A DNA stretch of 64,000 nucleotides from Octopus sinensis. Its lineage: Eukaryota. The position numbers and the translations under genes were made by a program. The stretch spans positions 46,314,001 to 46,378,000 of the forward strand of contig NC_043003.1 of the NCBI RefSeq assembly GCF_006345805.1, given 5' to 3'. Positions 5,066-54,516 of this stretch are shown one piece after another (the stretch's first letter is position 1; every line of letters begins with the position of its first letter). The notes under the pieces were generated by a model, which saw only the letters and a list, made by a program, of their open reading frames with translations, searched no databases and was not told where the DNA came from.

Positions 5066-5407
5066 ATTCGTTGATTTCAATCAGAGATTTAAAACTAGTT
5101 GTTCCCCTTGCGAGATCAGCGACTGTGAGTCGCTTTGAAAAGTATATTCTGTGAGTAAGGTTTAGCTGACTGCTGTGTCTAGCCAGGCGGTTGTCCAGCA
5201 TCGAAGTAGAGAAGTAACCCAGAAACCATGTGTCTGCTGGTACTGCCAACGGTTAGAAGGGAGCAGTGATCCCCCTTGCTTACAGTATGTCTGACACAGA
5301 TCATGGGTCGATAAACCAGCTAGAAAAGATGTTTTCCTGGGGTTAATAAGTAGTAACATAGTTCTAGCAAGGACTGCCAAGTTATGTTGGCAAATAAACT
5401 TTACTGT

Positions 5408-28890: not shown

Positions 28891-28952
28891 TAGAAAGTAC
28901 ATTGTGACAGTTACAGAATATAGAAAGTAATGTAACAACAATGACTATATAA

Positions 28953-29440
28953 AGCATTAATAAATCTCCGAACAAGATATGAACAATAACCGCTCGACAA
29001 CGTAAAGTGTACTAGCCATCTGAATGTGGCTAGCCACTGGGTGTGGGGTGTTACTGACGCTTTTAGCCCCAGGAGATCGACGTCTCCAGCTGGCCTTAGA
29101 CACAATTTCAGTGCACTTGTGTTATTTGCAAAGGGAGGTCATCCTCTCTCGAAAACCAAAGTGATACATACGGACTATAGTTTCAAGGTTATTTGCAAAG
29201 GTCTCCTTAATGAAAACCGGTGTTTACCATACGTTGACGAGAGGCAAAAACCTTGAAACTATAGTCCGTATGTATCACTTAGGTTTTTCGAGGGAGGATG
29301 ACTTCCCTTTGCAAATAACACAAGGGCACTGAAATTGTGTCTAAGGCCAGCTGGAGACGTCGATCTCCTGGGGCTTAAAGCGTCAGTAACACCCCACCCC
29401 CAGTGGCTAGCCACATTCAGATGGCTAGTACACTTTACGT
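28953..29440. mobile_element. Asymmetric inverted-repeat insertion (~190-bp arms, ~60-bp spacer, 47-bp extension) with 15-bp target-site duplication
   Basis: Arms ~29000-29190/29249-29440. ACAATGACTATATAA occurs at 28938-28952 and 29441-29455. Confidence 0.88.
29228..29272 (+). ncRNA. Type I hammerhead ribozyme (C3U core variant)
   Basis: CATACG-TTGACGA-GAGG-CAAAAA-CCTT-GAAA-CTATAG-TC-CGTATG. 6-bp stem I, palindromic stem III, GUC triplet. Confidence 0.8.
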
Positions 29441-29574
29441 ACAATGACTATATAATCCAACCAAAATATCTCAGTTTCACAAACGTAAACGGAATTAGTA
29501 TTTAACCTTAAAATATATCGTACATATTCAAAGAACCTTCTTGGTTTAGTGGTACGGAACGTTGTTCTGTTATT

Positions 29575-39670: not shown

Positions 39671-39935
39671 ATTTGGCGGATATTTGTCCTCTTCTTGTGT
39701 GTTGTTAACACAACGTTTCCTCTTATATACCTTCAAGCCTTCATCAGGTGTTTTTCGATGTTGTTGTTGTTGTTGTTGTTGCTGCTGTTGTTCAGGTCAC
39801 TGCTTGGATTCGAGCTCGGAATCTTGGGGCATATGGCGTAGTGATTAAGAGCGCAGGCTACTAACCCCAAGATTCCATGTTCGATTCCAAGCATTGACCG
39901 GAACAACAACAACAAAAACAACAACAACAACAATA
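39668..39935. mobile_element. tRNA-headed element with hammerhead, in inverted arrangement
   Basis: Plus-strand head 39827-39903 has A-box TGGCGTAGTGATT and B-box GTTCGATTCC. An inverted partial head at 39791-39829 continues through (AAC)n into a hammerhead. Confidence 0.75.
39707..39752 (-). ncRNA. Minimal type I hammerhead, stem II damaged
   Basis: Minus strand: AACAC-CTGATGA-AGGCTTGAAGGTATATAAGAG-GAAAC-GTT-GTGTT. Confidence 0.65.
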
Positions 39936-40520: not shown

Positions 40521-40596
40521 TATATATATATATAACAATGATAAATCTCAGAGCGAGTTATAAACAGTAGCGGTAACACAACGTGATGCATATATG

Positions 40597-40730
40597 CCAT
40601 TTGAATATGGCTAACCCAAAAGGGTGGATGCTACTGTAGTTTGTAGCCCCAGGGAGACACCTCCTCCCGCTGGCTATAGACACACTATCTGTGTCCTGTC
40701 AGTATTTGTGAAGGGGAGTCATCCTCCCCG
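40597..40730 (-). other. Conserved multi-hairpin domain homologous to the arms of 28953-29440
   Basis: Same order of helices with divergent loops. Strand inferred from G-U pairs and from orientation relative to the 29228 hammerhead. Confidence 0.65.
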
Positions 40731-40818
40731 TCTTCAACATTCCATTATCGCAATGGACTCCATGTGGACAGCCATCTAAGAGTTTTTGTTCATCTTGATG
40801 CTGACATAAGTTCCTTGT

Positions 40819-40901
40819 TTTTCCTGATGAGAAGGCGGCATAATGCACCCCTTATTCCTTCGAAATTAGGAATATGCAGCCTTCGAAACATATGTCGAAA
40901 A
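40819..40901 (+). ncRNA. Type I hammerhead ribozyme, canonical core
   Basis: TTTTC-CTGATGA-GAAGGC..GCCTTC-GAAA-CATATG-TC-GAAAA. G10.1-C11.1 pair, palindromic stem III, GUC triplet, predicted cut after 40896. Confidence 0.88.
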
Positions 40902-41427
40902 TAAAAGAATTTTGTTAAATCGTCGTTCAACTCCATTCTTTCATTTATTTGTATTAATAAAAACACAAAAATTTCCACACGAAAGCACGTGATCTCTGCC
41001 CTTGGCATGTAGCTTCAACCGTGTTTTTCTGACGTGAATTTGCTACCCAGGTATCGGTTAACCGAATTATCCATACTGAGATAATTCATTCAACTACTTA
41101 TATATACATATATATATATAATTATAAATTAGGGCATCTACGATACACCACCATGCTGAAAATAGCAGCCATGATCTGACTCTAAAACCACCTTAATTTT
41201 CCATATATCAACACGGAGAGAAAATAAAGAGACAATATGAAACTAGTAAAAAATTACTGGATAATCCTAGATCCCGGATTTCTGAATTTGCATTAGGAAT
41301 GCAAATTTATAATTTATAATTTTAATAGTTATTACCTTCGAAGGTTATTTTTTCTATGCTGGCCGCTTGATAAAATCGTTATTTTTTTTTTAAATTAACG
41401 ATCTTATCCTTATATATATATATACAT

Positions 41428-53559: not shown

Positions 53560-54492
53560 AAATATTACAGAAGTAAGTTTAAGACATTTCAATTTAAGAG
53601 AGAATTTCATATAAATGATTTAACACAAATGTGACTGCTTAAAGGAATTTTCCTTCTGCTTTTGTCTTGGATCTGTTGGTGATGGGTCACCATTCTGTTG
53701 TGTAAGGATCTGCCAGTCTGACCAATGTAATTATGTTGGCAACCATTATATGTGATTACGTAGATCAGGTTTTCCGCGTTGCAGTTTTGATTTGACTTGA
53801 CTTTGAAGGTTTGGCCATCTTTGAATTGAAATTCTGGCTCCTCAAATAGGTAACGGCAAGTGCTGAGTTCGTTCTCCTACATTTTGTGACTGTCGTGTTG
53901 GGGGTTTCTTTGTGTGTATTAGCTCCAGTGAGAATGAGTTTTAGTGTTGGGCTGCCTTTTTCTTTTGTTGATTTGTTGTTTTTCTAAGATTTTTCTAATT
54001 TTTTAATCTGGAAATAACATGGGGAGGTTTTCGTGGATGTGATCGAAAATTTTGATGTTCCTGAGGTTGAAGGTTGACACTTTCCCAAGTTGTTTATTCT
54101 GTTGGTGATTATAGCAGGAGGGAAGGCTCTTTAGTCTTTGGTTACGTTTGGATGGTTCTGATACTATGGTACAAATTCGTTTTGTCAGGTTTAAGGGAAT
54201 CTTAAGTTTCGGGTGTTTCGGGTGACATGATGTGAAAAGAAGGTACTGTTTGAGGCCACTGGTTTTGTAGAATATGCCTGTTCCTATTTTCCAATTTTGG
54301 TTTTTGATTAGGATATTCAGAAAAGCAAGTTCTTTGGGGTTAAACTCCATTGCGAAATGGATGTTATTCCTGTGGTTGCTTATCATGTTTTTGAATTCAG
54401 TTAACTCGTCAATATTTTCCTGCCATAAAATAAAGCAATCGTCCAGGTATCTTTTCCAATTGTTTCTGAGTTGGGTATGGAACGTGTCACCA
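53560..54492 (-). mobile_element. Penelope-like element remnant: RT C-terminus, thumb and GIY-YIG endonuclease
   Basis: WKRYLDDCF (YLDD 54438-54449), FAMEFN..LAFLNI..YKT..QYLLFTSCHPKH..IP, then NLIYVI..YIGQTGRSLHNRM..H (LIY 53760-53768, YIG 53721-53729). Confidence 0.92.
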
Positions 54493-54516
54493 AATATATA
54501 TATACATATACATATT

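What the first reader, a model, noticed from the sequence alone, without database searches (positions are those of the whole stretch)
29285..29430. Unassigned conserved multi-hairpin RNA domain downstream of a hammerhead, with a diverged homologue at 40597-40730
Seen: both loci keep this order: hairpin GGGAG(G)-ATGA-CTYCCC; hairpin GGRCAC-N7-GTGTCT; CCAG..GGAG-loop-CTCC..TGG; GGCT(T)A..CAGTARCAYC-variable hairpin-TAGCC; and GCCA-YATTCARA-TGGC. Loops and one hairpin differ in sequence while pairing is retained, and TAGCC has two alternative partners. It does not fit hammerhead, HDV, twister, pistol or hatchet patterns as I recall them. Inference: a possibly new cis-element (RT recognition signal, switch or ribozyme).
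Basis: partly seen in the sequence, partly recalled or inferred. Interest (0 to 1): 0.75.

Follow-up and report, generated by a model that had tools for sequence, protein, structure and literature searches.

The report
Retrozyme fold framing two copying starts
The hairpins are part of a roughly 355-base hammerhead-bearing mobile repeat with at least eight families in this animal genome; its predicted RNA fold is kept across them and frames the two fixed points where inserted copies end, so it likely tells a Penelope-type reverse transcriptase where to start copying.

Summary
The domain is real, but it is one part of a high-copy, non-coding repeat of about 355 nt. I found eight families, 46-74% identical, each with a type I hammerhead.

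Whole-structure conservation is strong: consensus energy -44.2 kcal/mol against nulls of -11.0 and -25.1. Per-pair covariation is weak: at best 2 of 42 pairs.

- GGCT pairs upstream, not with TAGCC.
- CAGTARC pairs with a tail outside the given coordinates.
- The first hairpin gives way to a 35-49 bp rod in the whole unit.

Copies end at two fixed sites. Of 49 resolved mirror-image insertions, 47 use one site at each end, often with 11-15 nt target duplications in AT-rich DNA. This is the Penelope-like (PLE) signature.

Verdict: a non-autonomous PLE-type retrozyme whose fold likely positions two reverse-transcription starts. That step is inferred, and no partner element carrying the domain was found.

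Side finding: an L1/Tx1-type LINE is followed by one site of this repeat in 29 of 30 copies. The scan noted a similar fold before in another genome (e1-8868179).

The parts
28938..28952 (+). Left target-site duplication (15 nt)
   Evidence: Exact direct repeat with 29441-29455
28953..29193 (-). Inverted, 5'-truncated copy of family F1. It carries the tail and ends at site 2 (28953).
   Evidence: 156-nt and 42-nt inverted arms, 95-97% complementary; CM 150 bits
28953..28999 (-). Tail: 3' strand of helix P4 (28984-28990, one base changed in this copy) and tail hairpin H7 (28964-28978)
29188..29440 (+). Right-hand F1 copy: rod, hammerhead and domain. It ends at site 1 (29440) and has no tail.
29188..29319 (+). 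Predicted rod extending hammerhead stem I; its outer helix pairs 29188-29201 with 29306-29319
   Evidence: 14-nt perfect inverted repeat; MFE fold, z -3.9; 35-49 bp in five families
29228..29272 (+). Type I hammerhead motif. Core 29234-29240 has U3 with G8 instead of C3-G8; loop III is palindromic; predicted cut after 29266.
   Evidence: Descriptor scan; coordinates. Cleavage untested.
29292..29307 (+).
   Evidence: P 0.00 in the monomer; 1.00 for F1 when the domain is folded alone
29324..29342 (+). H2 hairpin (6 bp)
   Evidence: 94% of cells paired; two double changes in F9
29345..29375 (+). H3: lower stem, nearly invariant asymmetric internal loop, upper stem
   Evidence: 2 of 4 and 5 of 6 pairs show changes on both sides; one pair E 0.04
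29384..29390 (+). 5' strand of long-range helix P4 (its partner is in the tail)
   Evidence: 7 of 8 pairs show changes on both sides; one pair E 0.0004 among the proposed pairs
29397..29427 (+). H4 (variable, absent in F7) and H5 hairpins inside the P4 junction
29433..29440 (+). End site 1 (inferred reverse-transcription start)
   Evidence: Copy ends cluster 8-18 nt past H5 in four families
29441..29455 (+). Right target-site duplication (15 nt)
40533..40738 (-). 5'-truncated, tail-bearing copy of family F2 with no hammerhead. H2 40678-40696; H3 40644-40676; P4 40630-40636 with 40565-40571; H5 40596-40611; H7 40546-40557.
   Evidence: 198 bits, but this copy was in the training set; z -3.5
5066..5404 (+). 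Older copy of family F3: tail, spacer, worn hammerhead (5195-5240) and domain, ending at site 1. The start coordinate is approximate.
   Evidence: (90 bits)

Best explanation
The hairpins belong to a non-coding repeat unit of 353-361 nt that carries a type I hammerhead motif and ends at two fixed sites in the genome; it is likely a non-autonomous Penelope-type retroelement (retrozyme) whose conserved predicted RNA fold likely docks a Penelope-type reverse transcriptase-endonuclease and sets its two start points.

Proposed cycle:
(1) Partial tandem copies are transcribed (inferred).
(2) The hammerhead, at the tip of a long rod, cuts unit-length RNA whose ends the rod holds together for circularisation (inferred from known retrozymes).
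(3) A PLE protein supplied in trans nicks both strands of AT-rich DNA 11-15 nt apart (duplications shown, enzyme inferred).
(4) One nick primes copying at site 1, inside the loop closed by helix P4, and the other at site 2, just past tail hairpin H7 (end pairing shown, priming inferred).
(5) The two cDNAs are joined at their truncated ends, which gives mirror-image insertions with the tail on one side (structure shown, joining inferred).
For: Unit and abundance: head-to-tail periods of 353-361 nt in five well-sampled families. All 8 families have the hammerhead motif upstream of the domain. In 599,800 bases of evenly spaced samples, 6 of 60 stretches hold a copy.

Ends: bimodal in 4 of 4 families tested. 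Of 56 outward-facing pairs, 7 had an unresolved end; of the other 49, 47 are site 1 + site 2, 2 are site 2 + site 2, and none is site 1 + site 1 (about 2e-12 against a 50:50 expectation, hand calculation). Thirteen pairs outside simple repeats, read by eye, show 11-15 nt duplications.

Fold: RNAalifold on sequence-only alignments finds H2, H3 and P4 and all helices with eight families. Energy -44.2, against -11.0 +/- 3.7 (0 of 200 tree-based nulls) and -25.1 +/- 2.6 (0 of 300 column-permuted nulls). The signal holds when the related F1 and F2 are dropped. A model trained without F8 and F9 scores listed F8 copies 66-151 bits and listed F9 copies 69-90 bits. The sense strand folds better than the antisense (-44.2 against -36.6). 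Whole circles have z of -4.6 to -7.5 in 5 of 5 families.

Precedent: PAc starts at two internal RNA sites that delimit the tail, extends both DNA strands, and needs the RNA downstream of its hammerhead (PMC11167929). A coding PLE of this genome has the same layout in miniature: hammerhead, an end after TTTAC, a tail hairpin, and a predicted long-range closing stem.
Against: No autonomous element carrying the domain was found. None of the 20 extended GIY-YIG loci has it as its own end, and the CM finds only one separate insertion in 17 PLE loci. H2, H3, H4 and H5, among them the most conserved parts, have no counterpart in the coding PLE examined, so the docking role is least supported for them.

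Per-pair covariation is weak: 1 pair at E 0.025 (91 sequences); none below 0.05 (134 sequences); and 2 of 42 proposed pairs on a structure-fitted alignment, where the only all-against-all hit below 0.05 was not a helix pair. Internal branches show 24 double changes against 40 breaks. The tests are my own emulation of R-scape.

The rod did not appear in the consensus fold of aligned monomers, nor in the single worn F4 and F8 units. The P4 register is ambiguous in F6. The tail (43-60 nt) is longer than the 30-40 nt in print. The F1 hammerhead has U3 with G8 and may be weak. In PAc, hammerhead cleavage is not needed for insertion in vitro (PMC11167929).
Confidence: 0.6

Rival explanations
1. The fold is selected for survival of a small circular RNA (compactness, ligation by a host enzyme, binding of a host protein). 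The RT reads only short local signals at the two start sites.
For: The whole unit, not only the ends, is strongly folded. H2 and H3 are absent from the coding PLE examined. Animal retrozymes accumulate as circles (PMC7229834, passages).
Against: Helix P4 joins the domain to the tail across site 1 and is the best covarying helix. General stability would not need the nearly invariant H3 internal loop or fixed helix positions at 46-74% identity.
Confidence: 0.2
2. The domain is a second ribozyme, or a switch that controls the hammerhead.
For: H1 and the rod exclude each other in predictions; H1 forms in 3 of 5 families (0.45 in a fourth) when the upstream strand is absent. The H3 internal loop is nearly invariant.
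Against: No Rfam match. H1 has P 0.00 in all five monomers, and in F6 even when the domain is folded alone. Copy ends fall at PLE-type sites, not at a new cut inside the domain.
Confidence: 0.08
3. The L1/Tx1-type LINE found inside the repeat is its mobiliser, and the domain is that LINE's signal.
For: 25 of 30 LINE 3' ends are followed directly by the repeat. Three long copies lie between two repeat copies.
Against: The LINE inserts at one site with its own duplication (a truncated copy in L333). The repeat inserts in TA-rich DNA with two outward-facing 3' ends, which L1-type priming is not known to make (established knowledge). The LINE behaves as a parasite of the repeat.
Confidence: 0.05
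4. Conservation acts on DNA (an internal promoter or a single-stranded DNA intermediate), or the copies are only the stumps of a coding PLE.
For: pLTRs hold promoters in other PLEs (PMC8557442, passages). The partner search covered only the loci I fetched.
Against: The unit runs into itself head-to-tail without an ORF in 7 of 8 families. G-U-type changes favour the sense RNA strand.
Confidence: 0.07

Closest known systems
Animal non-LTR retrozymes (Cervera and de la Pena 2020, PMC7229834, passages seen; Li, Clavereau, Pollet 2026, bioRxiv 10.64898/2026.07.22.740005, part 1 of 5 read)
   Same: Short non-coding unit with a type I hammerhead; size like the mussel (350-390 nt) and axolotl (331 and 353 nt) units; tandem copies; proposed PLE origin.
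   Different: In what I read, only single-sequence MFE folds are given, with no fold shared across families. Here the copies are mostly dispersed partial tandems and mirror-image pairs with two fixed ends. Expression and cleavage are untested here.
PAc Poseidon PLE of Anolis (Frangieh et al. 2024, PMC11167929; parts 1-2 of 4 read: abstract, main text, start of methods)
   Same: Hammerhead followed by a required RNA region; two internal RT starts delimiting a tail; AT-rich targets; both strands nicked and extended.
   Different: PAc is coding and its signal overlaps the ORF start. The paper names only an AC-rich stem-loop and finds no strand difference in start site in vitro. Here genomic pairs almost always use one site each, and the region is longer, with several covarying helices.
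EN+ PLE insertion units (Craig et al. 2021, PMC8557442; passages and a motif search of the supplement)
   Same: Partial tandems, an inverted 5'-truncated copy, a tail on one end, (TA)n bias, a hammerhead in the pLTR.
   Different: No ORF; tail 43-60 nt. Exact domain motifs were not found in a matching context in the Naiad/Chlamys/Hydra supplement (exact words only).
Minimal PLE hammerheads (Cervera and de la Pena 2014, PMC4209133; part 1 of 4 read)
   Same: Short or palindromic helix III suited to dimers; the U3-A8 core variant occurs in F6 and in the coding PLE family.
   Different: Stem I is extended into a 35-49 bp predicted rod; F1 has U3 with G8.
Transposon-targeting Tx1 LINEs such as Tx1L and Tx1-Mar (Kojima 2015, PMC4494074; passages) - applies to the side finding
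   Same: A LINE that inserts at one site of another mobile element.
   Different: The target is a hammerhead retrozyme, about 20 nt upstream of the core. The word Penelope does not occur in that paper's main text.

Membership tests
Non-LTR retrozyme | Type I hammerhead motif in each unit | tested here: met
   8 of 8 families; cores C3-G8, U3-A8 or U3-G8
Non-LTR retrozyme | Short non-coding unit of a few hundred nt | tested here: met
   353-361 nt in five families; no stop-to-stop frame of 100 aa over 28953-29440
Non-LTR retrozyme | Head-to-tail repeats | tested here: met
   Complete periods in 7 of 8 families (not F3 by that filter); mostly partial tandems, no long arrays seen
Non-LTR retrozyme | Self-cleavage of the transcript | not testable with these tools
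   Needs a transcription assay
Non-LTR retrozyme | Accumulation as circular RNA | not testable with these tools
   Needs raw RNA reads or northern blots
Penelope-like element (autonomous) | ORF with RT and GIY-YIG endonuclease | tested here: not met
   No copy contiguous with such an ORF among the loci held; it works like a PLE but is not an autonomous member
PLE-type insertion | Inverted 5'-truncated copy next to the main copy | tested here: met
   56 outward-facing pairs in four families
PLE-type insertion | Tail on one end only | tested here: met
   47 of 49 resolved pairs; 43-60 nt rather than 30-40
PLE-type insertion | AT-rich or (TA)n targets with variable duplication | tested here: met
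MITE / TIR DNA transposon | Fixed, equal terminal inverted repeats | tested here: not met
   Arms are unequal and variable, the two outer ends differ by the tail, and many listed copies have no inverted arm
tRNA-derived SINE | tRNA-like head | tested here: not met
   ARAGORN finds 0 genes in 8 of 8 loci; worn heads could escape it
Known ribozyme or Rfam family (domain itself) | Match to a curated covariance model | tested here: not met
   Rfam also missed the minimal hammerheads, so sensitivity is limited.
Tx1 clade (side finding) | RT phylogeny within Tx1 | not tested
   CCHC ORF1, APE, RT and zf-RVT; best solved match is L1 ORF2p; the label Tx1 is inferred from anatomy and target specificity

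The most novel reading that the evidence does not exclude
The 355-nt RNA is a complete, telomerase-RNA-like scaffold for a dimeric Penelope RT. H2 and H3 dock the enzyme; helix P4 and hairpin H7 hand one start site to each subunit, so every insertion is built from two cDNAs primed on opposite strands. A LINE has in turn specialised on this RNA's gene, taking its transcription and its hammerhead-cut 3' end to keep inserting there.
Probability: 0.25. Interest if true: 0.75.

Novelty: new variant of a known kind. Interest (0 to 1): 0.5.

Why it matters
How Penelope-type RTs, the closest retroelement relatives of telomerase, choose internal start sites and finish an insertion is largely open. That animal retrozymes ride on them rests mainly on phylogeny.

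Eight natural variants of a 355-nt substrate give a ready mutational map, with compensatory pairs, for the one in vitro system that exists. The 47-of-49 pairing of ends is a sharp prediction for double priming. The LINE that targets the repeat adds a parasite-of-a-parasite layer and a specific 20-nt target.

The element class itself is known, and no function was tested.

Tried and rejected
- H1 as the native fold: rejected for the whole unit.
- MITE/TIR and tRNA-SINE: rejected.
- Candidate family F5 is a 64-nt piece of the domain inside another repeat; it was left out of all counts.
- Apparent links to PLE ORFs in L139, L146 and L175 are separate insertions across (TA)n runs.
- The GIY-YIG search returned 150 scored matches of 5029 candidates. 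I examined 30 short and 20 long loci, so other PLE clades are not covered.
- Per-pair covariation: mostly not significant.
- The consensus fold of aligned whole monomers did not recover the rod, because the arms do not align by sequence.
- Sequencing runs: no RNA holder listed. The contigs laid show the head-to-tail joint also in runs that are not RNA-like, so they say nothing about circles or expression.
- The own genome could not be searched with the RNA model, so the family list and the partner search are incomplete.
- The Atlas look-up gave no result; the PDB sequence search with the PLE ORF found nothing.
- Literature searches listed no paper describing this fold or a LINE targeting a retrozyme. 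Most listed papers were seen only as listings. Repbase and subscription journals are not covered. The supplements of the bioRxiv retrozyme preprint are closed and could hold related consensus sequences.

Full report
1. Observation. The motif blocks are present at both loci in the stated order. The window lies in a 2.72-Gb animal genome. The closest named homologue of a LINE found here is from the octopod Argonauta hians, so the host is probably a cephalopod (inference). The 29285-29430 stretch is the right arm of a mirror-image insertion at 28953-29440, flanked by a 15-nt duplication. A type I hammerhead motif lies at 29228-29272. Rfam gives no match at gathering score and nothing that identifies the domain among the 150 of 191 E-value matches shown.

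2. The host element. Own-genome searches gave 2165 and 1688 first-look candidates for the two loci (40 scored each). Profile searches of fetched loci and follow-up searches gave six more families. The eight families are 46-74% identical over the domain and tail. Each has a hammerhead motif upstream. The unit runs into itself head-to-tail in 7 of 8 families, with periods of 353-361 nt in the five well-sampled ones. In 60 evenly spaced 10-kb stretches from the 14 first contigs, 6 held a copy. That scales to roughly 27,000 loci (hand estimate; Poisson range about 10,000-59,000).

3. The fold. On a sequence-only alignment of 29 copies RNAalifold finds H2, H3 and a long-range helix P4 between the domain and a tail. 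With my 42-pair structure, 85.8% of cells pair, against 39-46% when partners are slid; P4 has changes on both sides in 7 of 8 pairs, and H3 in 7 of 10. With eight family majorities the consensus energy is -44.2, with 22 of 42 pairs doubly changed. Tree-based nulls give -11.0 +/- 3.7 and at most 10 such pairs (0 of 200); column-permuted nulls give -25.1 +/- 2.6 (0 of 300), and the result holds with six or five deeper families.

Per-pair tests are weak: one pair at E 0.025, none in a larger alignment that misregistered F9, and 2 of 42 on a CM-fitted alignment using 62 of 93 rows (tail-bearing, non-redundant). With eight lineages, power is low.

Folding whole units as circles shows more. F3 gave no complete unit, and single worn F4 and F8 units did not give the rod. 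The predicted order is tail hairpin H7, site 2, a spacer hairpin, the rod with the hammerhead, H2, H3, then the P4 junction holding H4, H5 and site 1.

4. How copies end. In F1, F2, F6 and F7, 3' ends cluster 8-18 nt past H5 (site 1) and about 54-76 nt past it (site 2; the upper F2 values are inflated by a TA run in the reference). Of 56 outward-facing pairs, 7 had one end running to the edge of the reference or into another copy. Of the remaining 49, 47 combine site 1 with site 2, 2 combine site 2 twice, and none site 1 twice. Thirteen pairs outside simple repeats show 11-15 nt duplications; in several others the script found only 2-4 nt, and in microsatellites the length cannot be read. The loci came from best-hit lists, and the F6 and F7 queries included the tail, which favours tail-bearing copies on one arm but not on the other.

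5. Mechanism. These are the marks of PLE insertion in Craig et al. 2021 (PMC8557442, passages). Frangieh et al. 2024 (PMC11167929, parts 1-2 of 4) showed that a PLE protein nicks and extends both strands, starts at two internal RNA sites that delimit the tail, and needs the RNA downstream of its hammerhead. The domain occupies that position here, and its best covarying helix closes a loop around site 1. I infer that it docks a PLE protein in trans and sets the starts (0.6 overall; the assignment of the element to PLE-type retrozymes alone is about 0.9).

The genome has many coding PLEs (RT plus GIY-YIG). The commonest in my sample has two ORFs and a Cys-rich linker (Neptune-like by recalled motif, not tested by tree). 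It shares the U3-A8 core and loop III of F6, and its listed copies end mostly just after TTTAC, with a minority (6 of 23 by eye) running on through a hairpin tail; it can form a 13-bp closing stem. It is an analogue, not a homologue: the CM does not hit it. So the partner is unidentified, and H2 and H3 remain unexplained beyond being conserved.

6. A LINE that targets the repeat. Three long loci hold an L1/Tx1-type LINE between two repeat copies. A query limited to the end of ORF2 and the start of the 3' UTR gave 30 loci. In 25 the LINE is followed directly by the repeat about 20 nt upstream of the hammerhead core; in 4 by the target motif and sequence that reads as the 5' end of another LINE copy (read by eye); 1 is interrupted. 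Similar 3' ends abut single F3 and F4 copies (by eye). Tx1 LINEs that target other transposons are known (PMC4494074, passages). My searches listed none on a retrozyme. Its insertion style differs from that of the repeat, so it is read as a parasite rather than the mobiliser.

7. Comparison and novelty. The element meets the testable features of animal non-LTR retrozymes (PMC7229834, passages; preprint 10.64898/2026.07.22.740005, part 1 of 5; PMC4209133, part 1 of 4). Cleavage and circles are untested. An Octopus repeat annotation lists 30 recently active Penelope families and does not contain the word ribozyme in its main text (PMC13282606, passages). A fold shared across retrozyme families and tied to the two ends was not listed in my searches. 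An unreviewed note of this scan describes the same kind of thing in another genome (e1-8868179). It is not independent support, and I reached the reading before seeing it.

8. Verdict. A real, undescribed structural feature of a known kind of element: new variant of a known kind, interest 0.5. The most novel reading, a two-start RT scaffold with a dedicated LINE parasite, has probability about 0.25 and interest 0.75.

Noticed in passing
L031:1500-6985, L032, L063, L324-L353: L1/Tx1-type LINE inserting at one site about 20 nt upstream of the hammerhead core; 29 of 30 copies are followed by the target motif, and four of them appear to be tandem LINEs. Read-through would end at the hammerhead cut.
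   Followed up: partly
L135:374-4074, L141, L147, L151: Abundant PLE with a 479-aa upstream ORF overlapping a 781-aa RT-GIY-YIG ORF, a U3-A8 hammerhead variant, two 3' ends, and a predicted 13-bp stem that includes the likely ORF1 start codon.
   Followed up: partly
L006:2635-2698, L179-L198: A 64-nt piece of the domain is carried inside another abundant repeat whose end looks Helitron-like (label recalled, not tested).
   Followed up: partly
L325-L352: Many F1-like subfamilies, 72-87% identical to F1, with hammerhead cores C3-G8, U3-A8 and U3-G8; the core pair has changed repeatedly.
   Followed up: partly
window 40739-40960 and the flank of L139:9066-9274: The sequence upstream of the window's F2 copy is homologous to the downstream flank of the F2-like copy in L139; possibly a transduction or template switch.
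   Followed up: no
window 53622-54494 (-): Decayed PLE RT-endonuclease fragment, about 38% identical to the L135 protein.
   Followed up: no
window 39826-39900: tRNA-like SINE head, seen by eye.
   Followed up: no
L135:5718-5760 and L153:8458-8510: Another hammerhead-like motif in a different repeat that lacks this domain.
   Followed up: no
L146:7521-9442 (-): Two frames that look like LTR-retrotransposon RT and integrase, by eye.
   Followed up: no
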